Assembly: GCA_002633005.1 (NCBI GenBank)
Contig: NMRA01000275.1
Location: 395,827 to 459,826, forward strand
DNA from: Phoronis australis
Lineage: Eukaryota; Animalia; Phoronida
Reading direction: 5' to 3'
DNA: 64,000 nt
Part shown: in pieces, positions 1 to 44,275 of the stretch
Layout of the letters: every line of letters starts with the position of its first letter
Position numbering within the stretch: position 1 is the first letter of the stretch
The notes under the pieces: generated by a model
What the model was told of the DNA's origin: nothing
Seen by the model: the letters and a program-made list of their open reading frames with translations, nothing else
The model's database searches: none
Program-made: the position numbers and the translations under genes

Positions 1-130
1 TAGGGATCTTTTCATGCACCGTCTCTAATTTAAGGACTAAGTCCCTTACTGTTATGACTGAATTAAGAACTAAAGATCATATGCTCGTGAGTCATAATCA
101 GATTTCAGAGAATTGTTTTGCACAACTTAC

Positions 131-1229: not shown

Positions 1230-1450
1230 ACTCTATTGAACACGCTTCTGGTCACAGCTGCCACTGGCACTGTTGGTTGCTGGTTGCACAATAAATGTGT
1301 TGAATTCTCCACTGGAGGTAAATGTCCTTTAAATTGCCATGTCTCTGGGTTCTTTGATGTGTTTCACACATGCTGCCACCATGTTATATTATGGATGGTT
1401 GTAGTAGACATTAGATAAACATAGATGAACTAAGAATGTGGTCGCGAAAA
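1230..1450 (-). mobile_element. Relic LTR/PBS/gag start of another Gypsy element
   Basis: An LTR-like TGTTAT edge at 1382 is followed on the minus strand by TGGTGGCAGC (tRNA-Leu AAG/TAG-type PBS) and a decayed M..(W..W) gag start. Boundaries are uncertain. Confidence 0.45.
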
Positions 1451-2099
1451 TCGTTAGAGCCACGTGGAGAACTCGATCATAAGTTGCGTTGACAAACTTT
1501 ATTTGTTTCTTTCTTATAGTTACTCGGTTCAACTGTAACATACAAAAAAAACGTTCTATGAGACAATTGAACAATACGTTGGTCGTTTACAAAGTTACAA
1601 TACTAATATTAAACATTGCATATATTCTTATTCGGACAACGTCAAACTACTTCAGGCAACGCTAATTAAAGTTACAGAGTACGCGTTACAATTACGTTGA
1701 AGTACTGACTGTATACTGTAACAAAACTAAGTACAAAATACTTACACCAATTTGCGGCATATATCACGACTAAACTCAAAGCTCAAGATACATGTAAGGA
1801 CGTTGAAGCACGAATGAGCTAAGCTGGCGCGCGTTACAGCTATAAACTATGGTGCGCCGAGCAGTTTTTCATATGCAAAATTCTATTGAAGAATTAGTCA
1901 CGTGGAAAATATACGCGGTAGAAGCTGGAGAGCAAACACATAAACCANCCAACGGAATAAAGACTGTGAACAATGACAAGTGTCATGCATTTAACAAATT
2001 CTGTATAACCGAAAACTTGCTCCCGAAGTATAGTTAGAACTAAGAACAGTAGACATGTGGTTTATTCCAATATGGCTCAGACCGGAAGAGGGGAGAGAA

Positions 2100-3044
2100 G
2101 GAGCTCTCTAGTACAGGAAACATCAGGTTTGAATGTACAGGATATAACATTATAGTCCATAGACACTGGTAGAGTCCACAGAGAATAGTGCAATATTATG
2201 ACAGACGGGTCAGTTGTCTCTACAGCAGAAATCAGCTCATCATCAGTAGAGTCACTCTGATCATGACCCAGGACATATAAAGCTTGGTTTGAGGGCATTT
2301 CGACGAGCCTTTGAAGTGTTTTTTTTTTGCCACATGCCGCACATTTCTTCCCATATGCAGGGCACTCTTTTTTATGGGGTGCGATTTTAAACAGTAGTAG
2401 CACTCCTTGATGTGCTGTTTAGGCTTAGGAGGGGCGTCCTTGGGGCGTCCCTGTCATCTTTCAGCATGATTCACCTTGCGGTGACTTAGTTTATGGGCTT
2501 CGGTGGTGGTCTACATGGTCTTCGTGTGTTTCTTGGTTGCTTCGCAGGCCTTTGCGATTTCTGTCACACAGTCGTCCATCATTTTCTGTTGGGTGTCTTT
2601 GGTCCCTCACGCCACAAATTATACCATTTCGTAGTGCATTGTCAGCAGGTGTCATAATCGCATGTTCAAAAGTTGCTAGTTTTTGTTTAACACGCAGGTC
2701 TGCTAAGCACGCAGTCTCTTCTGGCTTCTGGTCACAACATAAAAATAAGAAGTGGGGTATGGCCTCATTTGTCTGACCTATGCATAGTCTCAAACGAGCC
2801 ATTGTCTCCTGTAAACTTTGGTTCCGGTAAGAACTCGGACGGTTTCAGTTTTCCTTCCTCCACGCCCGGATTCTCCACCATGGAAGGTTGTTCTGAGCAT
2901 ATCACTTAATCTTAATTATGTGATAACGATGGATTGATAAGATAAAGAAATGCATCTTTTGGTTTCCACTACAGATGTGCATTATGGCTGACCGCCAAAA
3001 TCCCAGAACTCTCTGCGTGACCAGGGGAGATAACACTCATAACA
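2100..3044 (-). mobile_element. Gypsy element E, 5'LTR plus degenerate gag
   Basis: LTR-like 2914-3044 (ends CATAACA) inserted at GPMPS of the H-type integrase. gag fragments ALRNGIICGVRD and zinc knuckle ECPAYGKKCAACGK. Confidence 0.7.
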
Positions 3045-3307
3045 CTAGGCATCGGACCCAAAATATCTATTGCTAAATATTTCCATGGGCCTGATGGCAG
3101 CTCAGTTCTTAGAACTAGTTTCCCAATGCAAGACAGCTCATCTTGTACCATTCGGAAAGAAGGGAGGCACTGTGACCAATTATCTGATCTAAGAGATTTA
3201 TTACATACTTTGGACAGTGCATGATCATTTGGCAGATGCTTTTTCTTTGTCTCGTGGAGTTATCGAATTTGGTACAGAATTAAAAGCAACGAAATATGCA
3301 TACTCCT
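3045..3307 (-). mobile_element. Detached integrase-proximal fragment, probably the continuation of element H
   Basis: Minus-strand translation EYAYFVAFNSVPNSITP..ASA..D..W..DELSCIGKLVLR|TELPSGPWKYLAIDILGPMPS. This segment follows DALSRL in this Gypsy clade, and H stops at DALSRLPVGGNGD at 17008. An internal deletion removes the HHCC finger. Confidence 0.65.
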
Positions 3308-6300
3308 TGTCATGTATGCATGTAAACGAGACGGAGTCACATGTTCAACTGCTATATTAAGATCAGAGCTAATGCATTACAGGAACAGTAACCGAGGTCA
3401 GGTGTCAACACAGGGTTACAACCTCCATATATGACATCCCCCTTTTAGGCAAACAAACTAGCAAAAATGCGAATGTCAAACTACTTAATACGCAAGAACA
3501 AACAACTAAACTACTAACACAATTGAAACGTTCGTTAAACAGAGAGTCCACTATCACTAATGTCTAACTTGTATAATCCTGAAACCACTTAGGCTTTCGT
3601 CGTTGTCATTGACTGCGACGCACGACCACGGCTGGAGAGCTGTGGTCCTTGCTCGCATTGGTCTGTGACTGGTTGTAGATCGGCGGCATCACATGGGACT
3701 CATCAGGTGATTTATTGATGACCCGCCGATTCCACTGGAGTGTCTCACCAGTCTCTGTAGTCACGAAGTACGACCGCGGGGCATTGTGTTTTCCAGTGAC
3801 GACAGCGTGCGCCCATGTTTTCCCTTCCTTAACGCGCACACTGTCACCGATGTTATGATCAGGAAGAGATTTTGCACTACGATTATAGAATCCGGCTTGC
3901 GCTTCTTGACGGTCACAGAGCGCTTGTCAGGCATTGTCGGGTACCGAAGGAGACAAAAGCTAAGATCTTGTGGGTATTTTGTCCCTCAGTCTCCGGCTCA
4001 TTAACAACTGAGCTGGCTAATAACGCAAACTGGTGACCGGTGTGTTACGGTACTCCAGGATGGCAATATTCGGATCCCGGTCTTCATGATTCGCCTTCCT
4101 GAGTAACACTTTGATTGTGCCAACAAACTTCTCACTCTGTCCGTTGGATTGCGGGTATCTAGGACTGCTATTTGTGATCTGAAAATTCTACTCGCAAGTA
4201 AACGATTGCATTGCGTAACTCACGAAAGGCATGTTGTCACACACTAGTATGACCGGAATGCCATATCTGGAAAAAATACTTTTCATGGCCTTGATGACAC
4301 TGTGTGCCGTTTTACCGTGCAGGCGCGCAACTTCAGGATATTTGGAGTCATAGTCAACAACGACCAATCATTTCCTCCAAAATCAAAGATATTCGCACCA
4401 ATTTTCGATCATGGCCGGACAGGTGCACTTGTGGTATGAGCGGGTCCTTGAGGTTGCTGCGCTTAAAAGTGGCACACGTAGCACAGCTGTTAATCATGTC
4501 CTCTATATCCTTATTCATATTGGGCCAATATAGACTGTCACGTGTGCGGGACTTGCACTTGTCTATCATGGCGCTCAGCTGGAGGAACGATTAATTTGCT
4601 TCCCACGAAGAATATACCATCTTCTTCGTGAATTTCATCTTGCATGGGCCAATAAGGCTGTAAATCAATCGGTACATCTCCTCTATGTGCTGGCCGTCTC
4701 CTTTGTATAAATTGATGCTACTTTGCAAACGTGCCGTCACGCGCTGATGCTTCGCGTAGACATTGCAGTTTTGCAGGCAATGCAGGTAACGATGACGTAA
4801 CCGTATGAACATGTAAAACGTCAAACCCACCGTCCGCACCAGCACTATCAAGGTATGCGCGAGACAAAGTGTCCGCTATGTACATTTTAGATCCCTGTAC
4901 ATACTTCACCTTCAGCTGATACCTCAGTAATCGCAAAAGCATGAGTTGTAGACGGTTTAAGGGTTTAAGCAGTGATTTCTGGAAAATTGCTTCCAGAGGC
5001 TTGTGATCGCTCTCTACCTCCACTTCATGTCCGTAAATAAATTGATGAAATTGTTCTGCTGCAAACACAATTGCCAGCATTTCTCGCTCAATTTGCACGT
5101 ATCGCGTCTCCGTGTCCGTCAAAGCGCGTGACGCAAACGCAACTGGTTGCCGATTTTGCAAGAGGCACGCACCTAGTCCGTTCGACGACGAATCGGCATG
5201 CAACGTGACCAGTAGTTTGGGTCCAACAAACGAAGAGTCGGACTGTCACTGATTACAGGCTTAACGTGCTTCATGGCTTCATCATGTTCAGGAAGCCATT
5301 CCCGCGGGACGTCTTTTTTCAGTAAACTCCGTAACGGGCTGGTCAGAGACGACATATTTGGCATGAACGGTGCAAGGAAATTAGCATTCCGAGCAATCTT
5401 TGAACTCCGGATTGATCCACCGAATTTGGCATAGCCACGATAGCTTTAATTTTTCTATCGTCTGGACGTATACCATCTAGTCCGACACAGCGACCCATAT
5501 ATGACACTTCCGTCAATTTGAATGGAATTTTTCGCCTGTTGAACTTCACGTTTTCTTGACGACCGCATTCCATCACTCTTCATAATATGTCATCATGTTG
5601 CTGTTCGGAATCCGCAGCAATTAACATATCGTCCGAGATGACATGAACACCCTCAATGTCACCAAACGTCTTGTACGCTCGTTTCCGCAAAATCTCACTG
5701 GCACTGGTTATTCCAAATGGCATCCGCAAAAACCGGAAACGACCGAAAGGTGTATTAAACGTACACAAATACGAGCTCAGCTCTGATCGAGCACCACTTG
5801 CCAATCACTATCTTTCTGGTCAAGTATCGTGAAAAATTTCTTGCCGCCGAGTTGCGTAATTATGTCAGCGAAAGTCGGAATCTGAAATTGCTCCCTCGTT
5901 ATGTATTTGTTTAGGTCTTTGGGATCTACACAGACTCATAACGATCCATCCTTTTTCTTAGCAATGACCAAACTACTCACCCAGTCGGTGGGTGCATCCA
6001 CTGGCGTTATAATTCCTTGATTTTGCATATCCAGCAGTTTTTGCTTCAGTGGTGTCAACAGAGTGGGAGCGATGCGGCATGGATGTTGGACCACCGGCTC
6101 CACATCCTTGAGCTGAATTTTGTATTCGTCTGCATATTCTCTTAGTCCATTAAAATTGTCCGCAAACTCTGATATTAGTTTCTCTGCGTCCAACTCAATC
6201 TGGTTTCCGTTATGTCCAGGCTTAATGACTCCAAGCTTAAGGCATGCGCTCAGCCCTAGGATAGGAACTGTTTTCCCTGTTGTAACATAAACATCAGTGG

Positions 6301-6574
6301 CGTGACTGTTTTGGCCAATCGACAATTTCACAGCAGCTTTCCCTGCCTGGTCAACAACGTTGTCATTGTATGCCCGAAGAACTGCAGACAATTGCATAAT
6401 ATTCGGCCCGTTGGTAATCTTTCTCCACGTACGTAGTGGTATGGTGTTCGCCTCAGCTCCGGTGTCTACTTTCATTTTGATCAAAGAACCATGCACATAC
6501 CGAGACTGGAACCAACCATGACGCCACATCCTTATTATCTCGCAGGTATGTGTCAACCTGGAGACACATGACAC
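3308..6574 (-). mobile_element. Gypsy element C, pol plus 3'LTR
   Basis: 3'LTR 3308-3436 (TGTCAT...ATGACA) with PPT AAAAGGGGGGA. Protease (MKVDTGAEAN), RT (FNTPFGRFRFLRMPFG, ISDD), RNase H (ADSSSNGLGACLLQ), integrase (YWPNMNKDI..CATC) and PRSY C-terminus. Confidence 0.9.
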
Positions 6575-9500
6575 TGTTGTGTATGTAATACAAGAGATCG
6601 TTCGTAGAACATATGTTTATTGCATCGCTAACACCAAACTACTGCAACACACGTGTACAGGCTAATAGTATATAAAATGTCAAATAGTCGCCAGGTGGCG
6701 TTGTAACTGCTCTAATGTAAACATAACATAACATCCCTCCACCCTGGGATTGAACATAATAAGGCTACTGGAAATACACGAAAATAACACTGGCTGATAT
6801 CCAACTAACTACGTTATAGTAGTGAAGTGTCCATTGATGCAAAAGTTCGATAAAATAGTTCACAACGTAAGCCTTTGCGGCTGAATCGAACGTCGTCCAG
6901 AGCGGGTAACAACACAGTCCTTTCTGGCGGTCCCCGGCAACATTAAACTCTATAGGTTTTTCCGGAACCGTCGGAGGTGTAACGTCCGTGCCACTTTTCT
7001 TCATTCGAACGTCATTTGGGGTTGTAACGAATTCGTTAATATGCGTCGTTGGCAACTTCGGTTGCCGAATCGGCACTTCGCCTGGTTGCTTTTGACTAAC
7101 GATCGCATTTTCGTCCGGTATGCAACGTGACACATGGTGTGCGGGGCGTTGCCATTCGCGACCGTCATGTAGTTGAATCGTGTAAGACTCCGGTCATTGT
7201 TGGACGATAATTACATCAGGCTGTCATCGCGGTAGCCCGCCAAAATTTATTGCATAAACAGTGTCTCCGGTGAAAAATTCTCATGTTCTAGTGCGTTTGT
7301 CGACAGTCGCTAATTAGTCTAGACGCATTTCCTGAAAAGAGCCCTGTATAAGGTTCTAGAAGCATTTTTTAGTAAAAGTCGGGAACAAGACTTTTTCACA
7401 CAATCAAGGCATGGCGAATTCAACTAACCCTGTTCCCAAGCCGAATTTTGCATTTTTGACCGTCTAATTAGCATAAACAAAATGGCGGCCAAATTGTCAA
7501 GTTCAGATGTATTTTTGTAATAGAAATCACAACATACCATTTAAAATGGTGAAATGTCTCACCTGTACAATTCTTATAAATACTTCTCGAGCAACAGATC
7601 ACTTAGGAAAACTAAAAAATGCAGCTCTAAAACTAATTATGCAAATTAGGTGCCGCCATTACCATACAATGTAATTTGCGTCTTAAGTTGGTGCTCCTGC
7701 AGGCTAACTTGAAAAATGAGGTGTTAATACTTATATTTTCATGGTCAGCAAACATGCTAAATACATTTTTGGAGCAATTTATTTCATATTTATTGGGTTA
7801 TAGATTGTATACTTACAGAATGTGGAAAAAATAGTCGTTAATCTGCAATGCTCGTTAAGCAAGGTGACACTATTTTGACGGAATATAAGGACAAATGTTC
7901 ACACTATCCCGTTATCTTCCATTCATAAAAAACAATTTAGTTATTGTTATTGAAGACATTAGATTCTTTGTTGCATGAATTGTTTTCAGGCCTGTTGAAC
8001 ACAGTTTTAGCATTCACTTTTTGGTACTTTTTAACATGCCTGAAGAAAGGCATATCAAACTGTTTGCATACAAGGATTCTGATCATGAATGAGCTGCTGG
8101 CATGTGCATAATGATATGCATCGAAATCCAGATTTCTTGCATCTGCATAGTCTACTGTTGCGTTGTTTCTGGGATGCACACAATACCATCTCTAGGCAGC
8201 CATCTGGGATTTTACTCTGTGTCATCAGCATGGGATGCAAGCATAAGTTTGTGTGTCCCTCCCATATCAGAGGATGCTGGGAGCTCAGGTATGGAACAAT
8301 GATCATTTTGCCATACCTTGACTTGATAGTGCACTATCATCAGATGGAAACGGCGGGCATTATGCGTTGGGGGAAGGACTTCTGAGTTCACTGGCTTGGA
8401 GAATAGTAAATGGCGTGCTACATCTACAGGTCTGCTCTGGTCGTGTTGTATATTCTGCAGACAAATACTTCTGAAGCCATCGTAATTTTCTTAGTGAGTT
8501 CACCAATGCATAGGTTCTTAAGCAATCTGTGATGCTCTAGGAACACCTACCATGATGATTGTTTCATGTGATTGGCAAAGTACGAGTTGGTGCCAAACCC
8601 GGTCACGGCGTGAAAAGCAAACAAGGATGTTGCTGAGTCTCGTAGTAGTTTGTTGAAAAGTGCTTCAATAGGTATATATGACTTCAGTCAGATAGGCTCA
8701 CATTGCATTTGTTGGAAGTGCGATACCAGAAGCAGTAGAACATTGGGTGTCCCTGGAAAACACGACTGACTGTGGACAGCATGCAGTACCAGTCTTGCAT
8801 CTGCTTCTTCATGTGTGAATTTCAGAGTCCTCAAATCAGTCATATCCTTAGATGATTTAATTGACTTCCAGCTCACCTTTGAACCTCCTGCAATCATAAC
8901 CTCTTTATCTTCAGGTGTCTACAAACACAGTTCCTCTGACAAGAAATGTGCTAGGTCTGCTTTTTTCTCAGCCAGTGTCCGAAAATTTGACCAGTTTTGC
9001 GGAAGAGGTACATCACGGTCTTCCAAAAATCACCTGAATTGCCGTGTTCCTTTACTGCGCTGTTTTCTTGTTGTGTCCTTCATTGTTTCTTGTCTGTATC
9101 TGTCAAATACAATATCAATTTTATGATATCGAAATCCTGTGTTTAGCACTTTTCATGAATGAATCAGCCAGATTTTCGAAGATCACATCATCATCAGGCT
9201 TCCCAAGAGTTACCAGCAATGCTTCGATATCAATAATGAGGCAAGCGGATGTGTCATGAAGCTGAATTGCTTCAGGACAGTCGATGTGATAGCTATTAAT
9301 ACTTCGACAAGTGAAGATTTATATCCAGTGCGCAATGTGCCACTCGTTTCTGCAAGACAACATGGACTGGAAGAAGCTCGCGTTTGAGCACAGACGGCAA
9401 ATCAACTGGCCGACCCGCCTCATAAGCCGTAGCTAGACAGCCAAGTACATCCCTGTCTGCCTTAAGAACTATTTTCTTATCTTTATCTTTATCTTTGGTT

Positions 9501-11786
9501 TGTTTCACCACATCATATAAGTTGGCAAATGTTGGGGCATTATTTTTGCGCATAGGTGCATGAATTGACATGTCTGAATTATCGCATTGCTCAATGATAA
9601 TCTGTCTTGAACAAATTTCTTAATTTGTTCGTGTCCAGGTTGCTTGGTATGCAAAAGTGACTCTTGGATTGATGCTGTTGCTAGGTCTTTTGTTGCAAGG
9701 GTTTGTAGCGCTAAGGCCTTGCGGACGAGAAGACCTTCAATCCATGGAAAGTGTAAAGAAGGGAACTCTCGACACTTTCCTGGCTTTCTTGGCTTCGTTG
9801 TGAAACAATGTACTCCCACAGCGGTAAGTTTGTTCAGCTATATGATATCTCAGATGCAATGAGAGTGTCCACCTCCATAGAGCTGACGTGGTATTGGTAT
9901 TACCGATGATGCCACCTCCATTTTGCCTGCCCCTTTTACACATTGGTCAGAATCTACCTGACAGAGCGTATGAGGAGATCGCTTGACTACAAACTTTCCT
10001 GCTTGAACCTCTGACCAAACAGACTGTGGAAGCTGATGCATCTCGACTAAAAAGACCGCACCCTACTCGGGCATAATTCGGTGGGGCAGAATGAGAGTAA
10101 ATGAATAGAGATGCAGTTCCAAAATACCATTCCGTTGAGAGCATGTGTACTTTAACAATATTGGAAGCATGTCCATGTAACTCTACCAGAAGCTGAAATT
10201 CACATCATCAGACCTACTGTTGACAAAATGCCCAGGAGTTTCCTGAACTTATCCTGACTGAGAAATGTTATCAGTTCTGGAATTTTCTGTGGATCATCAT
10301 CTGCAGACATACTGGAAAAACAAGCATGACAGTCGCTTCTGCAATGAACGAGAGAAGGCTTGGCACCAGGAGATGCCACAGAGCTTGCAAAGACAGTTTG
10401 TGTGCCCTTATACTGTAGCTTTTCTGTTCGACTTTCCACTGAGGACCACCAGTTCCATAGGTCGTGACCAAGTACTGCACTCTCTATACACACCTCATCT
10501 ATTCCGGAATCACTCATGTGATCTTCTGTGGCCTTGTTGAAGTTCACTGATACATGAAGAACCACTAAATGAGGTACTGCATTAACATATTTTGGTATTC
10601 TGGGACCGACCACGTAAGCTCCATTAATCTGCAGCAGAGTGCTTGGTCGACTGTGAGGACGGTATGTTCCTGTCCAAAATGATACGGCCATGCATCTCTT
10701 TACAACAGTATTTAAAGTCAAGTTGTTATGTTTACAATACTTTTATGTCTTATCTAAATAATGAGATGTTCGCAAAAAAGCATTGATAATTATGATTTCT
10801 AATTTAATTTTCAGGCTTTATTTATGAGCATAAATTGTAACTTAGTGAAGATGAAATAAAAAGCTTCACATGTGTCATAATGATTTTTCTAGACCTTCAA
10901 AACATAGGTATAGACACTTTATTTGTCATGTTTGCCTGCAAATTGATAAAGTTACACCGATATTTGAATTTTTCGGTAATGGCGGAAGCTAATTAGCATA
11001 CTTGGGAAATTTAATGACGTTCATTAATATGTTCTCAAAATTAAGTGATCTTAACACACTTATACTATGTTTTTGTAGCATAAATTTCCTAATTATTCAT
11101 CACATATTGTACTCCTGGTCCCACGAATGTTTCTTATCTTGTTAGTTTGGCGGCCATTTTGTTTATGCAAATTGGATGGTCAAAAACTCAAAATCCAGCT
11201 TGGGAACAGGCATAATCGAAATCAGTACACTATAATTATGCTAAAAAGATAGGTTCTCCACTTTTACTAAAAAATGCCTCTAACATGCACATTTTCCAGA
11301 AATGCGTCTAGACTAAATTGTTTATCGAGAAATTTCTGACGCACATCTGGCACAAGCAAATCCAAAAGCGAATGTGGTTTCCTGGACATTAGTATCTTAG
11401 TCGGTGAACGTCCAGTAGTCGAGTGTGGTGTAATCCGATATCTGGCTAAATAGTTATACAGTCGTGTGTCCAAATCGCCACTCAGTTTCTTGATGCCCTG
11501 CTTGATTGTTTGTAAAGCCCGTTCGGCTGCGCCATTACTGGCTGGGTGATACGGAGTGCTGCAAATGTGTTTGTTGCCATTGTTTTTACAAAACATGGTA
11601 AAATCCGCACTGGTGAAATCTGAGGCGCGTTATCCGACACAGTAACAACGGGTAGTCCGTGTGTTGTAAAACACTGACGTAGTCGTTTAACAGTAGCCTC
11701 GGTCGATGTGCTATCGGTAATATAAGTGTCCACATATTTGCTGTGAGCATCCGCTATTACCAGAATGTATTTACCTTGTATTGGTC
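6575..11786 (-). mobile_element. Gypsy element D, integrase plus 3'LTR, interrupted by an Academ element
   Basis: 3'LTR 6575-6733 (TGTTG...TAACA) with an adjacent purine tract (GGAGGGA). Integrase 11319-11786 (GKYILVIADAHSK, STPYHPASNGAAER) rejoins in frame (LDKQ|LATVDKR) across the Academ TSD. Confidence 0.85.
7315..11315 (-). mobile_element. Academ (AcademX-type) DNA transposon, degenerate
   Basis: TIRs start TAGTCTAGACGCATTT and extend imperfectly for about 180 bp. 3-bp TSD AAT at 7312-7314 and 11316-11318. Minus-strand fragments include XPG/PIN-like motifs (HEEADARLVLHA; AFHAVTG) and a C-terminal Cys-rich finger (LCRCKKSGFRCISLCTC), the AcademX architecture. Confidence 0.85.
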
Positions 11787-14700: not shown

Positions 14701-15570
14701 ACTCCACCGGAAACTGATAATTCATCCCTAAAACTCCAATAAGGCGATACATCATTGTCCACAAACTTTTTAGTGGACGAACAGCCTGTTGTGATATAAA
14801 TCAGCAACTGCCTTATAACACGATCGAGCCTTGTAGCAGTCTTCAGACTAGAAGCAGTCTTGGGCTTTAACCTAACATTTGGCAAGTTATCTGCCATCAT
14901 AACATCTAACCTTAATACCTGAAACTCTGGGGAGTTGGAATTAATATCCGACAGAGGAGCTCTCGAAAGGGTGTCCGCTAGGACCAACGATTTCCCTTTC
15001 TTGTAAACAACAGATATGTTGTATTGCTGAAGGCACATCATGAGCCTTTGCAGACGTTTTGGTGCTTTGGTCAAAGATTTTTTGAAAATACTCTCTAAGG
15101 GCTGGTGATCAGCATGAACAACAGTCTGATGGCCAAAAAGCCACAAGCGCCATTTCTCGCATGCCACACATATGGCCAACGTCTCCTTCTCAATCTGTAC
15201 CCATGAACACTCATTGGGTCGCATCTGGCAAGACGCATACGCTACCGGTTGTAAGCAACCCTCTACATTTGGCTGCATTAAACATGCACCTAAAGCCGTG
15301 TCCGATGCGTCTGTCGGAAGGACTATAGGCTTACTAGGGTAAAAAACCCCAGACAAGGTGCCGAAGCAAGTTGATTCTTGGCATGCTGGAATGCTAAGTC
15401 ACAAGCCGGAGTCCATACAAAGGGAACATCCAGTTTAGTCAAATTATGTAATGGGTGAATAGTCTCATACAATGATGAACAAAACATATTCAAATAGGTA
15501 ACCATACCCATGAATCTCTGAACATCCTTCTTATCAACAGGAGTTGGCATATCTGTTATTGAACGAAATA
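11787..15570 (-). mobile_element. Gypsy element B, 3' half (RT connection, RNase H, integrase, PPT, 3'LTR), interrupted by a CACTA-like end
   Basis: ORFs 14694-15356 (TDASDTALGACLMQ, LADTLSR), 14043-14492 (PDYPWQFVSQDLF, TSSPYWPQGSG) and 12120-12449 (PRSYMVDT..VRRNRKHI). PPT AAAGAGAAAGGGA at about 11913-11925; putative 3'LTR at about 11787-11912. Confidence 0.85.
12571..14032 (-). mobile_element. One end of a CACTA/EnSpm-like DNA transposon
   Basis: Terminus CCCACGGTCAGTCA followed by many subterminal TGACTGA(A) repeats (12580-12950). Minus-strand fragment HSKEYKKVMRRNSYTV..FAQIKYF resembles the C-terminus of animal EnSpm transposases. It splits the host integrase GRRTRT|RVPL. Confidence 0.6.
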
Positions 15571-17007: not shown

Positions 17008-17869
17008 CTATCCCCATTACCACCAACTGGTAATCTGGACAAGGCATCTGTTGCATTTTGTGAACCTGGTCTATACTTCACTGTAAAATTAAATGGCAGT
17101 AACCGCAAGGCCCACCGCTGAGGAAACCTTTCCCTTATATGAATAAATGATTTTCAAAACCTTGTGGTCAGTAGTTAATTCAAAGGGTAACCCAAGAAGA
17201 TATATGCGAAATTTCTCGCAACCCCAAACACAAGTGAGAGCCTCTTTTTCGCTCTGACAATGCTGTCTCTCTACATCACTGAAAGATCTGCTCGCATAAC
17301 TGACAGGTTTGAACTTGCCATCACTCTGTTTCTGAGTTAAAATACACTCAATACCCACGGAACTGGCATCTACAACAAGTTTCGTATCAACACCCTGAGT
17401 AAAAGGAGCAAGAGACTCAGCATTTGAAATCATTTCTTTTAATTGCATGAAAGCATCTACTTGAGCCCTGCCCCATACCCATTTCTCACTAGATCTGGTT
17501 AGCCGTTGCAGAGGTTCGGCTACACTAGTGGCTAATTTGGAATAAACTCTGTACATCAATTCACCAAGCCTAAGAAAGCTCCTATCTTTGCCAACTTTAG
17601 TTCAGTACTACCATAAATGATAATATCATCTGCTATGTTTCTAGCACCTGGGCAGTCCTGGAGCATCTGATTAATAATAAACTGGTATTGCTCCGGTGCG
17701 TAGGATGCACCAAAAAGCATTAATTCTTTTGTATCTGTACAATCCTTAGTGTGCTGTAATGGTTGTTATTGCACGAGAATCGGTATCCAGCTCAATTTTA
17801 TGGAACCCTAGTTTTAAATTGATTTTGCCTGCATGTCCAATAGTATTTCCTTCACTGTAGAAATCAGAT

Positions 17870-17990
17870 TGTAGAATTAAGATAAAAGACATATTAATAA
17901 ATATATTCCACTAATATTCAACTACAAACATAATATTCCAAATCAGAGAGCGTCGTCATGAACGTGATGTTAAATATCGCGTATGTGACA
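17870..17990. mobile_element. 121-bp solo LTR inserted in the RT of element H
   Basis: TG...CA ends with near-TSD CAGAT (17865-17869) / CGGAT (17991-17995). Removing it restores RERHP-ISTVKEILLDM. Confidence 0.75.
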
Positions 17991-19888
17991 CGGATGCCTT
18001 TCCCTAACTATTGCCTGATTTGGAATTCTCATGGCTACACAAATTCTGACATCATTTTGCCCTGGTTTAGGAACAACAAGAATAGGAGTTATCCAAGGGG
18101 TGGGGCCTGAAACTCTCTCTGTCACGTCTAGTGACTCAAGTGTGATGACCGAATGTATCAACTAAAGCGATCACATTTACGATATATGTATTTATTAGCA
18201 CAACCATGAGTTTACATGCGTTCTGGCCAACAGCCAGACCCCAACTGGACCACGAGGTCTCTAACAACTTGACTAGACGGAAGACACGCCCATTACATAC
18301 TAAGACAGTTACCACAACTCCCCTTTTCTTATGTTTGAACTACCTACAATTTTAATCTAATTGGGGGTTTTGATACACGCCCCGAACGACACAATCCCCC
18401 GCCGAAAACATCAGTTCCACTAACAGTGTCCGTTTGGCCAGGGTCTGTGCCTGGAACAGGAGCCGACTCAGCCAACGCGTCCCTGGTAACCTCCTGCTCA
18501 GCCTCAGCGACAACACAATCCTTCACTTGGTCATGTGACAGTTTCTGCGCAAACTGTTTACTCACGACGTTAATGCCTGGTCTCATGTTATCCAAACGTG
18601 AACGCATTTTCCGACGATACAATATCTCGCAAGGCGGTTTGCCAGTGGTACTTAATGCGGAGTCAACCGGTACCACATCAACATTTTTAGTCTAGTGTTC
18701 AAAGTTCCGCCTTTGATCTTCTTCAACCCTTCTTTCACAATCTGGACAGCTCGCTCGCATAGACCATTAGACGCAAGATGGTATGGTGCGACTAATATCT
18801 GTTTCACCATATTACTCCTCAGAAAATCTGCAAACTCCACACTAGTAAAGCATGATCCATTGTCACTCACTATCATACGGGGTACATCATGATCAGCAAA
18901 TGACCGCCACAGACTCTCAATGGTCGCGGCCGATGACGATGAATGGTTGACGTGCACGTCAATCGATTTTGATTTCGCATCAATGACCACTAATAACATC
19001 TTTCCCTCTATCAGGCCAGTGTAATCGATGTGTAAGCGTTCCCATGGTTCACCAGGTTCTGTCCAAGGGTGCAAAGGAGCTTCTAGTGGCGATTTACGAC
19101 ACTGGCGGCACTCGGAACAACCGCGCACCACACTTTCTATCTCCTTGTCTAGATTGGGCCACCAAACATAAGATCTTGCCAGATCGTGAAATGCCCAAAT
19201 GAGCTTCATGCAGCTTATTCATAGCACAAGAGCGGAGCGATGGGGGTATCACCACACGACATCCCCACAACAAACAATTATCCTCAATACTCAGTTCATT
19301 GCAATGATAGCTGTACGGACGGAATTTGCCATCGGATACGTTGTCGGGCCACCCAAATTTTACAAAATATAATACTTTCGACAACGTTGGATCCCTTGCA
19401 GTTAAGCGTTTCACTTCGTGTACATTGGCCGACATATTTCCCAGTTGACCCTTCAACCAATTTACGTGGCCTGGGATTTCAGAATTCTTTGGAACGTCGC
19501 TGACAGGCAAACGACTGAGGCCGTCGGCATTTGCTAATTTCTCGCCCGGTTTATATTTGATGGTATACTTGTACGCTGACAGAATCAGAGACCATCACTT
19601 TAACCTGTCAGATGCCATCTGTGGTATAGCTTTATCCGGGCTAAAAATGATTAGCAATGGTTTGTGGTCCGACTTGATTGAAAATTCCTGTCCATACAGG
19701 AACTGATTGAAATGTTTGAGTCCAAATACAATCGCAGACCCTTCTTTATCTAACTGACTGTAGTTCTTCTCGGTTATCGTTAAAGTTCGCGACGCAAATG
19801 CAATTGGGCGTTCCGAGCCATCGCTGAAATCGCGGGAAATAACAGCACCAAGGCCATACGGTGAAGCATCGCATGCCAACACTAACGG

Positions 19889-21430
19889 CATTGGCATGTG
19901 TGCTGCTGCGGAGCCTGCACGTTTGTTTCAGGGTCAGGGGACATGATGCCATTCTGAGCGACTGTCATCGTGACGGACTCACCAATTTTGGGGAAGTCCG
20001 GCGATATTGTGCCAAGGTTGGTACATACCTCTCGACTGAGGAACACTTTTCTGGTTGTGTCAGTTATGTACACTATGGCTTTCGTGTGCATCGGTTTCTG
20101 CGATGGTCCGCGACCAGAAAAGTGGAGTAGGGTGGCACCAAGGATGTTAATGTCGCCGTTGTTGGCCGCATGCATCTTCATGGTGACAGGGAGTAGGTCA
20201 CGCTGGGAGAGACCTAGTTGTTGAAGCGTGTTGAGGCCGGCGAGGCAGCTCTGGCAGCCTGTGTCTGCCAGGCAGTGTATAACGACTGGGGTGGTGCAGT
20301 GTGAAGTAGGGAAGCCAAGTTGTTCGAAGTCGCTGTTGTCAGCCAAGGTAACTGAGAGTTGTACCGTGGGTTGCGGTTTCGATGCTTGGCGTCGCCACGT
20401 GTCGTTAAGACTATCGTACAGGTGATGGTCGAGTTGTATCGTTGTGTGTGACTGTGTATTACCTGTCATGTGGCAGAACACCCCACAGAGTTGGTCAAAG
20501 ACTGCACTCTCATTGTTGGGAGGGGGCTTGCCTTTGGGGTTGTCCTTACTCCGACATACGGATTCGAAGTGGTGGGGTCTGTTGCAAGACAGGCAGGTGT
20601 GCCCGTAGGCGGGACAGTTCTGTCGACGGGCTTGTGCAGGGGCACTACGACCATGCCCTGTTTGACCACAGTAGGTGCAATTTGTGCTTTTGTGGGATGT
20701 CGTATCTCTTTTGTTGCGGCGGTATAAGCTGGTGGCATCTGTTTGGACGACTGGGGGGTCTAGTAGACGTGAGGCAGACCGTTTGCCAGATTCTTTGGCT
20801 TCGACAAACTGGAACACTTGCTCAAGAGACATGTCCTGGTTTTTGTCACCGAGGAGATCCAGCTGAATCTCTGGGTCGGCTAAACCCCTTATGAGAACAT
20901 CNNNNNNNNNNNNNNNNNNNNNNNNNNNNNNNNNNNNNNNNNNNNNNNNNNNNNNNNNNNNNNNNNNNNNNNNNNNNNNNNNNNNNNNNNNNNNNNNNNN
21001 NNNNNNNNNNNNNNNNNNNNNNNNNNNNNNNNNNNNNNNNNNNNNNNNNNNNNNNNNNNNNNNNNNNNNNNNNNNNNNNNNNNNNNNNNNNNNNNNNNNN
21101 NNNNNNNNNNNNNNNNNNNNNNNNNNNNNNNNNNNNNNNNNNNNNNNNNNNNNNNNNNNNNNNNNNNNNNNNNNNNNNNNNNNNNNNNNNNNNNNNNNNN
21201 NNNNNNNNNNNNNNNNNNNNNNNNNNNNNNNNNNNNNNNNNNNNNNNNNNNNNNNNNNNNNNNNNNNNNNNNNNNNNNNNNNNNNNNNNNNNNNNNNNNN
21301 NNNNNNNNNNNNNNNNNNNNNNNNNNNNNAGAGAGAGAGAATGCTTTAATTTAGCGAGACTCGTTAGTCATGGAATCCACTTCCTGTCCGTGACTAGTGA
21401 CCTCTATTGGGTAAAGGTGAATATTCTATA
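19889..21430 (-). mobile_element. Gypsy gag-protease fragment (element G) nested in the RNase H region of element F; spans an assembly gap
   Basis: Uninterrupted 316-aa ORF 19882-20832 with CCHC knuckle (CLSCNRPHHFESVC) and protease (LADTGCQS). The host frame VLTHFDLSK|PLVLACDAS rejoins across 21431/19888. N-gap at 20902-21329. Confidence 0.85.
20902..21329. other. Assembly gap
   Basis: Run of N. Confidence 1.
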
Positions 21431-24004
21431 GTTTGGACAGATCAAAATGAGTCAACACAGTCTCTGACGACATTATAACTTTAGACTCGCGGAAAGCACG
21501 GTCTTCGTCCTGTGACCCAAGTTCACGCTACATTTTTACGTAGTAGCCTATACAACGGTGCCAATCAGGTGGATGCGTTCCGTATGTATTTACCATGATA
21601 GTAGTTCAGCATACCCAGGTATGCTCGGAGCTCAGTAACGCTTCTCTGTACGGGGGCGTCACGAATCGCACAAATTTTCTCATCCGTCAGAGGTAGTCCA
21701 TCCCTGTCTATTCTGTTCCTCAAGTATACAGTTTCATCTTGCAAGAAATTGCATTTATCCATTGTTTAAACGCAAACCAGCATCTGATAGACTGCAGCAC
21801 AGTTCTTAAATTTTCAAAGTGTTCCTGTCTGTTTTTGCCCGTGACCACAATGTCGTCCAGATATACCACTACTCCAGGTATACCTTGTAACAATGTATCA
21901 ATGGTGTGCTGCCAAATACTCGGGCTCGAGTGTACTCCAAAAGCAAGATGGTTGTTTTGATACAATCCACGGTGGGTATTAATAGTCAAATATTCCTTTG
22001 ACGGCTCGTCTACCGACATTTGCAAATATGCATTACTCAAACTTGTCCAATTTTGAAAATTGAACGCCTTGTGCAACCTCAACCTGAAGCTCATCTGTTC
22101 TTGGGATCGGGAACTTATCCAACAATGCCACCTGATTGACAGTTATGCGAAAATCACTGCACACCCAGATTTTTCCATTAGATTTTACTATAGGCACGAT
22201 AGGCGTTGCCCAGTTTGAAAACTGCACTTTACTGATTACGCCAATTGCCTACAGATGGTCTAATTTCTCATCCTCCTTTGACTGCAGGGCAAACGGTACG
22301 GGGCTGGCCTTGAAAAATCTCGGCTTAGCATTTGGTGGAAGATGGATAGTTGCCACAAAATCTTTGAGGTTACCAAGTTCATCAGCTAACAGATGCGAGT
22401 ACGATTTCAACAACGCATCAATATCCTTGCCAAATAATTTGTTAACAGATTTCCATTCGGACTGCAACATGTGGCTCCAATCTGGCACTAGCAATTCTCT
22501 CAACCAATCCCGTCCAAGCAAACTCGGCTCTAGCTGGTACCACCAACAACGGCAAGTCGTGTAACTGACCATTAACCGAGACATTAACTCACGCCTTGCC
22601 TTGTAACGTGTTCTTAGACTTTGTATATGTAAATAAATTATCATTCGCGCTATCCAGTTCTGGCTTGTCGCGCCCGAAGTGACTGTCAAAAACTGATCTG
22701 CAGACAATGGTTTGCGGCGAACCAGTGTCAACCTCGAACTCGAGAGGTTTGCCACCCACACATATTGTGGTGACCACAGGCGGTTCCATTTGAACAGCAC
22801 TGAGCAAATTGTTCAAGAAGGAGCCATCTCCATCTAAATAATTTGTGCGGCCAGATTTTCGTCCAGATTTGACATGTACCTTACAAGCTTTTTTGATATG
22901 CCCCTTTCGCCACAAGCATAACACGACGCCTCAATGAAACCACATTGCGAAGGGTCATGACTACCCCAACAACAAAAACATTTCGTCTTACCGTACGTGG
23001 TGCCGTTGGTCAGCTTGCTTGGACTTGGGCTTGAATCTCCTGGGCTGAATCTGATTAACTTGATGAGGCTGGGGGCTGCAGTTCGATATTAAACCGATGT
23101 TCGAGGCTGCCGCCTCCATGCTGACACAGGTGTCGTATGCTTTTGCGAACGTTAGGTTTTGGATCGCAAACAGCCGCTTTTACATATCCACATTTTGGAC
23201 ACTGCAGATCAGACGGTCGTAACATGTCATTGAGTGTATCTCCAAAGTCGCATGTCGCCGCTAACTCCTGAAGCCGACTAACAAAACTTGCTATGGACTC
23301 CGGTTTTTCACGAACTGCGGAGTTAACTTGAAACGACTCACAATCGGATTCGGTGTAGGCGCAAAGTGTTCAGTTAACTTTTTGATACAGCTGTGAAAAC
23401 GTTTCGTCAACTGGCTTATCCGGCTGTATTAGTTTTCGGAGCAATTGATATGTCTCTGAACCGCACGTGGTCAAAAATATTGCGCGCTTCTTCTCCGCCT
23501 TATCAATATCGTTTGCCACAACGTAGAACTCCAGTCTTTCCACATAACTCGACCAAGTCTCAACTTGTGCGTTAAAAGCACTAACTGTACCGTGAGCGGC
23601 CATAACGTTTCTTGTCATTTATCCTCGTCGCCAAATGTGATGACCGAATGTATCAACTAAAACGATCACATTTACAATATATGTATTTATTAGCACAACC
23701 ATGAGTACACATGTGTTCTGGCCAACAGCCAGATCCCACCTGGACCACGAGGTCTCTAACAACTTGACTAGACGGAAGACACGCCCACTACATACTAAGA
23801 CAGTTACCACATCAAGTTCATCCAACTTCTTACTAACAGCCTCTCACAGAGAGGCAAAGGTCTGACCTTTTGCGCTACTGGTTCAACATCGGGGTCTACA
23901 TAGTTCTTAAGTTTCCCCAAGCCTCAGAAACACTCAAGGTATTTCTCTTCCATTCTATCCAAAACAGACCGTCCCACAGCCTGTACATGATTTACCTTAG
24001 GGTC

Positions 24005-24944
24005 TGTCAGACGATTGACTGTGGGTTTGTTTAAAAGGTAGCTATGCTTTCAGATTGTGCGTAGATGGAAAGTGAATAATCAAATCCAGTAATTAATTTA
24101 TTATATGATAACCCCTAATTAGACAAATGAAACCTATTTCGTGAACATATGCTGTTACTTGCTATCATGGAGAACAAATGAAACCTATTGTTAATTAAGT
24201 AATCAACTACAAAGAGTATGCTAACGCCCTCTTTAAAGATTGCTTTAATCAAACAACCAAAACGATCAAATGTCTTATCTGCTATCCAAGCTAGGACTCT
24301 CCACTTGTTGGATGTCTGTCCTGTTGGTGAATCTTCGAACTACACACACTGTATAGCGACAGTGTACTTGCTGGTCACCGTCTCTGGTGATGCAACACTT
24401 GCAGGCAATTTCTTCTACCCGCGATTCTTCTTGCTGGTCACAGTCTCTGGCTGATGACGCAACACTTCAGGTTACTACCCACAATGCAAGTGACAAGCTC
24501 TTAGTTAACTTCCTGTTCGTTAACCCTTGCCCTTGCCAAGATCCTTTCTAGAATCTTCCACGAGATGGCTCTGTCGTACAATTGCTTCTGTACACCGTAG
24601 CAAGTCTTTATGCTTCAACTACTATAGCGCATCTAATTATCTTGTTGATTTCAGCCCATAATATAACATTCTACTTATTTAGTGATTGGCTAATAAAAAC
24701 CACATGATCATATCCACTCGTATTATTGGCTGTTACAATTTGTTCTCAGAATATTCTAGAATCTCTAGAATACTTTGACCCCAGAACCCAAAGTTGTAAA
24801 CACCATCTAAAAATAGATTTTGACGTTAAATTACATGTCAACAAGTCTGACCCCATGATTTAAAAGTACATATTATGCACAAATTTTGGGCAACTTAAAA
24901 TGGATCTATTCTTACTAATTATTTAATCAATATTTATTCTGACA
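24005..24944. mobile_element. 940-bp solo LTR inserted in element H
   Basis: Termini TGTCAGA...TCTGACA. 5-bp TSD GGGTC at 24000-24004 and 24945-24949. Host protease-end sequence (LGRRTAEQLGILRVGP) lies on the flanks. Confidence 0.85.
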
Positions 24945-27900
24945 GGGTCCCACCCTCAAAATACCCAACTGCTCAGCAGTTCTCCTACCTAGACTAGGTT
25001 GAGACCCTATTTAATTACTATTAGCGACCATGAATGTAGCCACAGTGTGCTCACTGCCTACACCAATCTTAGCCCTAAATTCGCCCCGTTTAAAGGCTTA
25101 GTGGATCCATATGGGTAAATGTTTGCCTCAGATTTACACAACTTTACCCCAACCTGACTTAACAAAAAAGTCTCAGTGTTTACAACATTAACACTTGTTC
25201 CTGAATCTTTCAAAAATGGAACTGACTGACCATTAATCAAAGCAGGCACTGCGTCACTGCTGTGACTGGCAGATACAACAAACTTTTAAGTTTGTTGTAT
25301 CTGCCGGTTCACCAACATTAGAATTTTTGTGACACATATTTACAGAGTGTTTAGTTTTACACTGAGCTGCAAAATGTCCTTCTGCACGTCTGCTCTTGGC
25401 AACTGTGCATGCTGCTGCTTTGTGTGGGTTGCCGAATCGGAAACACTTCATCTGCATTTTCTCTGGCTTTTTCCTGGCTTCCACTTGGTGCTTCTTGGGT
25501 TTCAGTTTGACGTAATTCACATGCTCGACGCTAGCTTTGGTCATGACTGCAACTTGTGCATTAGCTTTCTCATGAGCTCTGCATTATCTACTGAGTCCGA
25601 GACAATATTGAAATTGTCTTATATTGTTTCAAAAGTTCTTGTTTCAGTTAGCTGGTAACACAAGTTTCTACTACCTGGTCACGGATTGCATCCTCCAGGC
25701 CATCACCAAAATCACATGAGTCGGCTTACAAACATAGGTGTGAAACATGCGAATCAGCTGTCTCCCCTGCCTCTGTTCTGAATTGACGAAATACCTGCCT
25801 CTCAAATGGAATGTTTTTCTTAGGCATAAAATAATTATCGAGAGCTGAAACACAATCATCAAAACAACTGTCACCTGTATCAGGCAGCGTCTCAAACAAA
25901 TCCTGTACCGTTGGTCCCGCCGTGTGAAGCAATACTGCTTTCCACCAACCAATAGCCGTTAAGTAAATTAATAATTTCTTCCACTTCGTCCATCGTTGGT
26001 GTAAACTGGTAGTGTCCCCAGCCAAATCAAATGATCCGATCGATTGTAGGTTTAATAATTTTGACATCCTCGTCACCAAAATGTAGTGTCTTTGCAGGAT
26101 GTTAACGGATTAAACACAATTTATGTACTCGATAAACACGTTTATTAGCCATCCAGCCGGTGTCCGCTACAATAGCAACATTACAAGTGTACCGCTATAT
26201 AATAACATGCACATTACAGGTTGAGTCTGCTGATTAACGATCCAATTTCCAAGATGGCTACACACAGTACGAGCACGACGGAGCACACCGTAGCTCGAGA
26301 AAAACGGCCTGACTTTGTCTAAGTAATTGTCTGTTGACCGCAAAGAGTACACAGAGTTTGAGAATACCACTCATACGATTGGACACCACAATCCTTTAAG
26401 CTGCCACTTATGTTTCGCATCAAGTTTTATCGGCAAGATGCCAGAGCGTGTTCATAGATCAACTTATCTTTATTGGATAGGCAGAACAACAACTATGACA
26501 GATAGCGCCATCTATTGAGCAGCATGAAACACGGGAGGAAGTCCTATAGTGACACCTATCGTTCGCCGAACTAAGTATTCTCTAGTTAATGTACTTCAAG
26601 AATCTTGCTTGATGCCATTGTGAAGAAATGAAATAGAGAGCAGTTAACTTATTTTATTGAATAAGAATAGCTGTTGGTAGGCGACAACTGTCAATAAACG
26701 GTGCTGCTAACTCTTGCGCCAAGTTTCGTGTTGGCAAGCTGTAACAATAGAATATAGGCTAGGTCCCGTACTCGAGTTTGCATCTTCAGAGTTATATAAA
26801 GTTCCATTGTTATAGTTTTAGGGCTGACAAGTGCAGGGCAAAATATGTTGTTTTGTGATTTTATTGCCAATCGTAAAAACTGGCTGCCCATCATTTGCCA
26901 AAATCCAACACTCCAGGACCACAGGATTGTTGCCCATGGGGAATGCCTCCCCGTCTCCCTCCGCACCGAAACATTATGTTTGTGACTTTATGCCTGAATA
27001 ATGTCACACTCCTTTATTTTTAAATTTCAATCAGTATGACAGGTAGTTCACAAAAGATCCTTAGGACATGATTGTTTTTGAATTAGTGTGCCGTTACTGG
27101 GGGCTGCCATTCAGTGATTACCAAACTTGTCTCCATTCTGATGCAGAAAACAGGTACCCCAATTCCCTGCTGTTCAACATTACCGAAAGGGGACATAACT
27201 GTTCTGCAGAGGGTCATTGGAATAATTTACGTCTAAGTAGTACGTGAAGTTTGTGTCCATTGACCTTAGTACTAGTCTGGTTATTCCACCTCTAGGTTAT
27301 AACAATAAAAGTTGTGCTTCAGACCTTGTCAAAAAGAATTTGTTAAAAATATTTAGTTTACATGCGGTATGATGTTACTTATCTACCACTGGAAGATGTT
27401 GATGTTACTTTTTCGTGTCACCAGTATTTTGATTACTGAATGTATTTCAGTGCCAGTTCTTATTTTATTTGTGCTAATCTCTTCCATTGACATCAGTTTG
27501 TTCATGCATGTTCAGGTGGTCGTCTCAATGTGCAAGTTTCCTGTTGTTTAGTTATGCTAATTCAAATGTTTTTTTGCATTTGTCATGGTGTATGTCCACA
27601 TAAATTGCATTGTATTTTGAGCAGGACACCTACATTTCTTTGATACGATTCTCATGTATTTTACGTTTTATACAAATACACGTTTCATTTTCGGTCAGTG
27701 AGTTTTATTTCATAGAAATATTGCATTTTTCTACAAATTATGTACAAAATAAATATACTGACAAATTACACATTGATGTCCATGAGATCTAAACACCTAG
27801 TAGCTCGCAACTGTACATGAGAGAAATATCCACGTCATCGGCCACACTTGTTCAGGTACACCTACCTGCTCTTCATAAACATTTGGAGATCAGACTGTTT

Positions 27901-32099: not shown

Positions 32100-44275
<12,176 letters not shown>

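What the first reader, a model, noticed from the sequence alone, without database searches (positions are those of the whole stretch)
1230..26218. Strand-locked transposon trap: candidate flamenco-like unistrand piRNA cluster
Seen: about 25 kb made almost entirely of decayed TE pieces from unrelated families (at least 9 Gypsy elements with different LTRs and PBSs, an Academ element, a CACTA-like end). All 11 orientable insertions read on the minus strand, including both DNA transposons. Under random orientation the chance that all agree is about (1/2)^10. Insertions span different ages (near-intact G, F with about 95% identical LTRs, heavily decayed H and E), and the block stops abruptly next to TE-poor gene space. 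Established: Drosophila flamenco and similar unistrand clusters are Gypsy-rich, with inserts antisense to one long precursor. Inference: a plus-strand precursor, converging on the MIER1 3' end, turns this locus into an antisense piRNA 'memory' of past invaders. Such a locus may be undescribed in this lineage.
Basis: partly seen in the sequence, partly recalled or inferred. Interest (0 to 1): 0.88.

Follow-up and report, generated by a model that had tools for sequence, protein, structure and literature searches.

The report
One-way transposon trap with antisense RNA
About 25 kb of broken jumping genes in this invertebrate genome all point the same way, and RNA reads match the opposite strand over at least the right-hand third, so the stretch is likely a source of small silencing RNAs (piRNAs), though those small RNAs could not be looked for.

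Summary
Observation confirmed. About 90% of 1230-26218 is transposon-derived. All 1418 of 1418 Gypsy protein matches lie on the minus strand, as do an Academ-type and a CACTA-type transposase. I count 10 insertions oriented by protein homology and 3 by weaker marks; none points plus. Corrections: no element is near-intact, two 'elements' are one, and the pile continues to the window's left edge.

Stranded RNA-seq from three same-species runs of one study, calibrated on MIER1, shows plus-strand (antisense) RNA: about 36 pairs versus 0 at 25.2-27.2 kb, and about 19 versus under 1 at 18.5-23.9 kb, ending near the MIER1 3' end. Over the whole block the strands are balanced (about 450 versus 432), dominated by apparently multicopy repeats, and the left part is unresolved. 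MIER1 read-through is not seen.

Best reading: unistrand piRNA cluster (0.6). Main rival: an ordinary long plus-strand transcript that purged sense insertions (0.25). No small-RNA data could be tested. Such loci are published for flies, slug and sea anemone, and this scan noted similar ones in eight other windows. New member of a known kind.

The parts
1230..26218 (-). Co-oriented nested transposon block (continues left to the window edge)
   Evidence: 90% TE-derived; 1418 of 1418 Gypsy HSPs minus
17020..26218 (-). Gypsy element J/H: 5' LTR 26082-26218, PBS TGGTGACGAGG, gag, protease, RT, RNase H; interrupted by K, G and a small insert; integrase end missing
   Evidence: homologue P0072 residues 429-477 at 23944-23810 resume at 477-524 at 18140-17991
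24005..24944 (-). K: 940-bp solo LTR (TGTCAGA...TCTGACA), 5-bp target duplication GGGTC, apparently high-copy; orientation inferred only
   Evidence: CCAAT, TATA-like and AATAAA (98 nt from the end) in order on the minus reading; mixed loose ends at both termini
18141..23811 (-). G: Gypsy element with both LTRs (18141-18316, 23637-23811; 95% identical), PBS, PPT, target duplication TCAAG, nested in the RT of J/H; frames broken
19930..21470 (-). G': second Gypsy piece (probable LTR start, gag, protease) inside G; spans the 428-N assembly gap 20902-21329
17870..17940 (.). About 70-bp AT-rich insert in the J/H RT, flanked by AAATCAGA on both sides; matches part of a minus-sense RNA made elsewhere
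   Evidence: 72 and 40 partly matching reads in runs X2 and X3
15600..16990 (-). F1: Gypsy 5' LTR 16875-16990, PBS TGGTGTCAGGAG, gag, zinc knuckle, protease
11800..15570 (-). F2: Gypsy RT end, RNase H, integrase, PPT, 3' LTR from 11912; LTR unrelated to F1's
12567..14020 (-). CACTA/EnSpm-type piece: transposase C-terminus 13574-13894 and one end with subterminal repeats; sits in the F2 integrase, flanked by GTAC on both sides
   Evidence: 16 homologues align at their C-termini; homologue P0179 has a weak DUF4218 hit, E=0.006, below cut-off
6575..11790 (-). E: Gypsy integrase half, PPT about 6733, 3' LTR 6575-6732; interrupted by the Academ-type element
7315..11315 (-). Academ-type DNA transposon: long inverted ends starting TAG, 3-bp target duplication AAT, internally deleted transposase 8058-10730
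   Evidence: matches residues 619-1537 of a 1541-aa unnamed protein, all minus; 3-4 bp TSD of AcademX per PMC10045372; family name otherwise recalled
3310..6570 (-). D: Gypsy protease, RT, RNase H, integrase, PPT, 3' LTR; gag and 5' LTR missing
2972..3259 (-). C: probable integrase zinc-finger scrap (weak)
   Evidence: blastp E=0.026 to the G integrase; no Pfam hit
2080..2900 (-). B: Gypsy gag-protease scrap
   Evidence: tblastn E=4e-6 and 2e-4
1372..2030 (-). A: LTR end followed by PBS TGGTGGCAGC; outer boundary uncertain; family is transcribed and spliced in the minus sense, probably from other copies
   Evidence: joint 1532-1746 CT..AC in first-mate-plus reads, with fixed differences from this copy
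51..680 (-). Z (left of the finding): PPT 213-225, LTR 51-212 and a partial second copy 605-680
18537..27500 (+). Low-level plus-strand RNA, antisense to the elements, rising towards its 3' end; AATAAA at 27304 and 27748; right end approximate
27770..39718 (-). MIER1-family gene (ELM2-SANT) with about 4.3 kb 3' UTR; strand control for the RNA data; 5' exons lie further right
   Evidence: Pfam ELM2 and Myb; 7 exons match Lineus longissimus MIER1-like at 56-87%; spliced reads 32604-33045

Best explanation
This is a pile of at least ten unrelated, broken transposons that all code on the minus strand, with RNA reads matching the plus strand over its right-hand third, and it likely works as a one-strand piRNA cluster whose precursor would be cut into small antisense guides against those transposon families. 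Steps: (1) shown: repeated nested insertion, with target duplications at G, K, the Academ-type and the CACTA-type piece; (2) shown: one orientation only; (3) shown for 18.5-27.2 kb, suggestive for 11.4-15.2 kb, unresolved further left: plus-strand RNA ending head-on against the MIER1 3' end; (4) inferred: one long precursor from a promoter left of the window; (5) inferred: insertions pointing plus were lost because their LTR poly(A) signals would cut the precursor short and their guides would be useless, while minus-pointing ones were kept; (6) untested: processing into PIWI-bound 26-32 nt RNAs that silence the active copies, some of which give sense RNA in two of the three runs.
For: Orientation. 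Density 90% with a sharp edge. Library strand calibrated on MIER1: about 215 pairs one way and 0 the other in 7 of 8 bins; the eighth holds a repeat. 25207-27207: about 36 plus-RNA pairs, 0 minus, in 3 of 3 runs, including about 20 pairs in 26541-27207 where no TE was found. 18537-23872: about 19 plus versus 0.6 minus, plus ahead in 8 of 8 bins. 11441-15201: about 24 versus 11, plus ahead in 6 of 7 bins. Plus exceeds minus in 31 of 48 bins of the block, minus in 14, 3 tied. Seven LTR types carry AATAAA or ATTAAA 47-123 nt before their minus-strand end. Both DNA transposons follow the same direction. Layout matches the slug cluster described in PMC11615739 (passages) and the model in PMC10643416 (Discussion).
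Against: No small-RNA data were available. Summed over the whole block the strands are equal (about 450 minus versus 432 plus pairs), mostly from K and A, which appear multicopy. 2201-7040 is sparse and balanced (9.6 versus 8.2). 15202-18536 is minus-dominated in X2 and X3 (about 43 versus 6; 0 minus in X4). Most laid reads are 95-99% alike rather than 99+ (for example 386 of 412 in X2), so reads on TE parts may come from other copies. No output shows a read bridging two elements, so a single precursor is not shown. Pair counts are estimates from depth; the three runs are one study, of unknown tissue, 18-19% read. An 80% antisense bias of the kind seen in gene introns would give 10 of 10 with probability 0.11 (assumed figure). 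No genome-wide control.
Confidence: 0.6

Rival explanations
1. The block lies in an ordinary long plus-strand transcription unit (a large intron, 3' extension or lncRNA whose start is left of the window). Sense LTR elements were purged because they terminate or mis-splice the transcript, and no piRNAs are made from it.
For: Explains both the plus-strand RNA and the orientation. Antisense bias of LTR elements in introns is established in mammals (PMC3088655, passages). The LTRs carry minus-strand poly(A) signals. Low depth (0.36x per run in G) fits intronic RNA.
Against: Introns in the same window hold no coding TE pieces, whereas this block is 90% TE. The bias here is complete and includes two DNA transposons. 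No plus-strand splice joint was listed (low power, 3 reads needed). No plus-strand coding exon in 141 ORFs.
Confidence: 0.25
2. The co-orientation comes from insertion or deletion bias, or from chance among many TE piles, and the plus RNA is local antisense leakage from one LTR (K or J) or reads from other loci.
For: The scan covers very many windows, so p of about 0.002 will occur. Plus RNA is strongest right of K (1.8x versus 0.36x left of it). Several junctions (F1/F2, D/C/B) lack target duplications, so independence is not shown for all pieces.
Against: Plus-only reads also lie left of K in 8 of 8 bins. The RNA direction was predicted before it was tested. Four nested insertions with target duplications, from three TE classes, all agree. 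Small repeats in the gene space of this window occur in both orientations (2 inverted, 1 direct pair). PMC6911290 passages report nested pairs in both orientations (4 same, 2 reverse).
Confidence: 0.1
3. A former one-strand cluster that is now weakly read from both strands (dual-strand or decaying), as proposed for some fly loci.
For: Balanced sparse reads at 2.2-7.0 kb and mixed reads over the Academ-type element. Conversion model in PMC10643416 Discussion.
Against: Right-hand 8.7 kb outside K is strictly plus. The youngest dated insertion (G, LTRs 95% identical) still obeys the bias.
Confidence: 0.05

Closest known systems
Unistrand piRNA clusters of the slug Arion vulgaris (PMC11615739; passages read)
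   Same: Densely packed transposon fragments on one strand, with the RNA made from the other strand.
   Different: There the piRNAs were sequenced; here only long RNA and layout are seen.
Drosophila flamenco and flam-like clusters (PMC10643416; passages and Discussion read)
   Same: Gypsy-rich array, antisense to a single transcribed strand, made of many families.
   Different: Flam-like loci capture env-bearing Gypsy elements, their strand bias is driven only by Gypsy among LTR families, and flam is 180-650 kb. Here 4 of 4 elements with a 3' end have no room for env, two DNA transposons share the bias, and only about 26 kb is visible.
Mammalian read-through clusters downstream of genes, piC-DoGs (PMC11615739; passages)
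   Same: Antisense TE pile next to a gene's 3' end.
   Different: Here the neighbour MIER1 is convergent and gives no read-through (0 minus pairs in 25207-27207); a DoG from an unseen gene left of the window is not excluded.
piRNA clusters of oyster and pond snail (PMC6128900; passages) and Nematostella (PMC5731801; passages)
   Same: Mollusc clusters are Gypsy-enriched and one oyster class is rich in Academ; 402 of 457 Nematostella clusters are unistrand.
   Different: The passages I saw do not report a complete one-way orientation of the inserted elements.

Membership tests
Unistrand piRNA cluster | High density of TE remnants from many families | tested here: met
   90% TE; families 28-51% identical; unrelated LTRs
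Unistrand piRNA cluster | TE remnants oriented on one strand | tested here: met
Unistrand piRNA cluster | Transcription from the strand antisense to the TEs | tested here: met
   Met for 18.5-27.2 kb outside K (about 55 plus versus under 1 minus pairs, 3 of 3 runs); not shown for the left part
Unistrand piRNA cluster | One long continuous precursor with its own promoter | tested here: inconclusive
   Sparse short reads, mixed strands at 2.2-7.0 and 15.2-18.5 kb; no start inside the window
Unistrand piRNA cluster | Uniquely mapping 26-32 nt, 1U-biased, phased piRNAs from one strand | not testable with these tools
   Only long-RNA runs and one contig set were listed
flamenco/flam-like cluster | Captures env-bearing Gypsy elements | tested here: not met
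   In D, E, F2 and G the integrase frame ends within about 30-130 bases of the PPT; elements lacking a 3' end cannot be judged
flamenco/flam-like cluster | Somatic follicle-cell expression and size of hundreds of kb | not testable with these tools
   Tissue of runs unknown; block runs off the window; no genome held
Read-through cluster downstream of MIER1 (piC-DoG) | RNA continues past the gene's 3' end on the gene's strand | tested here: not met
   0 minus-strand pairs in 25207-27207; about 4.6 expected at 5% read-through
Academ (AcademX) DNA transposon | 3-4 bp target duplication and long terminal inverted repeats | tested here: met
   AAT duplication, inverted ends 73% and 68% alike; TSD length from PMC10045372
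Academ (AcademX) DNA transposon | Transposase matching a named Academ protein | tested here: inconclusive
   Homologues are unnamed and have no significant Pfam or PDB hit; TAG ends and motifs are recalled, not from a call
CACTA/EnSpm DNA transposon | EnSpm-type transposase and matching termini | tested here: inconclusive
   C-terminal 110 aa matches 16 unnamed proteins; one has DUF4218 below cut-off (its link to CACTA is recalled); only one end, and a 4-bp duplication

The most novel reading that the evidence does not exclude
An ancient-type transposon trap in an invertebrate lineage without described piRNA clusters, where one long antisense precursor polices env-less Gypsy elements and DNA transposons alike, has kept doing so through the latest insertions, and ends head-on against the MIER1 3' end beside the conserved MIER1-DNAI4 gene pair. 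That would make the one-way trap a general animal design and not an answer to infectious retroviruses as in flies.
Probability: 0.3. Interest if true: 0.62.

Novelty: new member of a known kind. Interest (0 to 1): 0.45.

Why it matters
If true, it gives a named, mappable piRNA source locus in a little-studied invertebrate, predicted from DNA layout and backed by strand-specific RNA. It also allows a direct test of the trap model outside insects: the families in the pile should be those with the most antisense piRNAs, and the bias should hold for elements without env and for DNA transposons. The kind of locus is known, so this is an extension of range and not a new mechanism.

Tried and rejected
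1. Genome-wide control and leftward extension: no genome is held; the look-ups by place found no earlier notes.
2. MIER1 read-through as the source transcript: not seen.
3. Hidden plus-strand TE pieces: none in Pfam or permissive tblastn.
4. F1 and F2, or J and E, being ends of one element: LTRs unrelated.
5. CTCF-like insulator at the block's edge (motif recalled): no site with up to 1 mismatch left of 54 kb.
6. Orienting K from other copies: the metagenome scan gave 6 hits, all chance 18-19 base matches.
7. Structured RNAs in 1-30000: 0 Rfam matches.
8. Lineage: the MIER1 C-terminal search gave 2 hits, the relevant one from the nemertean Lineus longissimus; this does not fix the phylum, so 'undescribed in this lineage' stays open.
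9. Naming the two DNA transposons through the protein Atlas gave no answer; the Academ paper was not held.
10. The run index listed no RNA holder; X1 is a contig set of guessed type and was not used as strand evidence.
11. Literature: 9 searches; none targeted this species, so absence from print is not claimed. No supplements were read; cluster tables there could bear on novelty.
Full report
SETTING. The window is from an animal genome with introns and small assembly gaps. Its right part holds a minus-strand MIER1-family gene (Pfam ELM2 and Myb; seven exons matching Lineus longissimus MIER1-like at 56-87%) and a plus-strand gene with an exon matching dynein axonemal intermediate chain 4 (E=6e-6). 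The phylum was not fixed. No whole genome is held. Element letters below are mine.

1. THE OBSERVATION. All stop-to-stop frames of 45 aa or more in 1-27000 were scanned, except one holding an N: 0 of 141 plus-strand frames and 16 of 117 minus-strand frames carried retroelement domains. Seventy-five full-length Gypsy polyproteins (the 75 of 120 listed that were 1100 aa or longer) gave 1418 HSPs, all minus and all left of 26218. A permissive rerun found no plus HSP better than E=0.022. With elements defined by their ends, 22,088 of 24,560 non-N bases are TE-derived. In 27001-64000, 0 of 120 frames had a transposon domain, though non-coding repeats exist there.

2. ANATOMY, read along the minus strand. 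J/H starts with a 137-bp LTR at 26218 and a primer-binding site, then gag, protease, RT and RNase H to about 17020. It is cut by K (solo LTR 24005-24944, duplication GGGTC) and by G (18141-23811, duplication TCAAG, LTRs 167 of 175 identical). One homologue aligns up to residue 477 right of G and resumes at 477 left of it, so these are one element. G holds a second gag-protease piece G' and the 428-N gap. Then come F1 (LTR, PBS, gag, protease), F2 (RT end to 3' LTR), E (integrase to 3' LTR), D (protease to 3' LTR), the scraps C and B, and the LTR end A with its PBS. A CACTA-type piece sits in the F2 integrase (12567-14020, GTAC on both sides); its last 110 aa match the C-termini of unnamed proteins on the minus strand. 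An Academ-type element sits in the E integrase (7315-11315, inverted ends, duplication AAT). Overlapping domains are 28-51% identical, so the families differ. Homologues are named K02A2.6-like or Tf2-like polyproteins of marine invertebrates where named. No element is intact (longest frames 103-324 aa). In the four elements with a 3' end the polypurine tract follows the integrase directly, leaving no room for env. Another tract and LTR at 51-226 shows that the pile runs to the window's left edge.

3. CHANCE. Ten insertions are oriented by protein homology (J/H, G, G', F1, F2, E, D, B, Academ-type, CACTA-type) and three by weaker marks (A, C, K); none is plus. Probability under 50:50 is 0.002 and 0.0002. 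Under an assumed 80% antisense bias it is 0.11 and 0.055, so layout alone cannot separate a piRNA cluster from a transcribed region under purging. Junctions without duplications (F1/F2, D/C/B) weaken the count slightly.

4. RNA. Three raw RNA-seq runs of the same species label (one study, tissue unknown, 18-19% of each read) were laid on 1-33200 at 95% likeness. Pair numbers are my estimates from depth, at 300 bases a pair. The libraries are stranded: over the MIER1 3' part about 215 pairs have the first mate on plus and 0 on minus in 7 of 8 bins, the eighth containing a repeat, and the last intron is spliced. First-mate-minus therefore marks plus-strand RNA. Results for the reading: 25207-27207 has about 36 plus-RNA pairs and 0 minus, in all three runs, including about 20 pairs in the flank 26541-27207 where no TE was found; 18537-23872 has about 19 plus and 0.6 minus; 11441-15201 has about 24 and 11; the Academ bins 59 and 36. 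The plus RNA fades in 27208-27874, where MIER1 RNA ends (contig end 27770), with plus-strand AATAAA at 27304 and 27748. Results against: the whole block sums to about 450 minus and 432 plus, over half from K; 1-2200 has 93 minus and 52 plus; 2201-7040 has 9.6 and 8.2; 15202-18536 has 43 minus and 6 plus, the minus reads only in X2 and X3. Reads on K, A and the 17870 insert show fixed differences or loose ends, so they probably come from other copies, but without the genome this cannot be shown. Most reads are 95-99% alike, which fits either allelic difference (also seen in the MIER1 UTR) or other copies. No plus-strand splice joint was listed, at low power.

5. MECHANISM. The best-supported model is a one-strand piRNA cluster (0.6): a plus-strand precursor from a promoter left of the window (inferred) runs through the pile and ends facing MIER1; minus-pointing insertions add antisense template and are kept, while plus-pointing ones would bring their poly(A) signals into the precursor and are lost (inferred; seven LTR types have such a signal 47-123 nt before their end); the precursor is cut to PIWI-bound guides (untested). 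Rivals: an ordinary long transcript purged of sense insertions (0.25), bias or chance with local leakage (0.10), a decaying dual-strand cluster (0.05). MIER1 read-through is not seen.

6. KNOWN SYSTEMS. It looks like the slug cluster of PMC11615739 (passages) and like flam-like loci (PMC10643416; passages and Discussion), but fails the flam feature of env-bearing elements, and its bias includes DNA transposons. Unistrand clusters are the majority in Nematostella (PMC5731801, passages); mollusc clusters are Gypsy-rich (PMC6128900, passages); a flamenco-like cluster is reported in Aedes (PMC7161354, search listing only). Intronic antisense bias is from PMC3088655 (passages). No supplements were read. 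Membership in 'piRNA cluster' is not established, because the defining small RNAs were not testable.

7. NOVELTY AND SCORE. New member of a known kind. Earlier notes of this scan list eight similar one-way piles in other genomes (unchecked AI notes, not used as support). This case has calibrated strand-specific RNA for part of the block, which raises it above layout alone. Interest 0.45.

Noticed in passing
window 33200-64000: MIER1 (minus) and a DNAI4/WDR78-like gene (plus; exon 55780-55995 matches PDB DNAI4, E=6e-6) lie head to head around a CpG-rich stretch at 44-48 kb. The same pair is adjacent in human (recalled, not tested), suggesting old synteny.
   Followed up: partly
window 17870-17940: A 70-bp insert matches part of a transcript made elsewhere (72 and 40 partly laid reads in X2 and X3, none listed for X4). 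It is also antisense to the plus RNA and may be a captured host-gene or LINE scrap.
   Followed up: no
window 1437-1900 and 15202-17202: Families A and F1 give sense RNA in runs X2 and X3 but little or none in X4; A-family reads are spliced (1532-1746, CT..AC). This suggests sample-dependent activity of other copies.
   Followed up: partly
window 12567-14020: The CACTA-type piece has one natural end, stops inside its transposase at the other, and yet is flanked by a 4-5 bp duplication (GTAC or GGTAC) without loss of target. This is an unusual way to insert.
   Followed up: partly
window 27770-32100: MIER1 has a 3' UTR of about 4.3 kb, covered by reads throughout, with a repeat near 30.3-30.5 kb read from both strands.
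   Followed up: partly
window 54017-55410: Three to four tandem copies of a roughly 400-bp repeat carrying CTCF-like motifs (5 of the window's 6 matches; 0.34 expected by chance).
   Followed up: no
window 41013-41715, 38683-38883, 63057-63247, 51789-52070: A 320-bp tandem repeat, two 200-bp hairpin MITE-like elements and an 18-bp minisatellite in intronic DNA.
   Followed up: no
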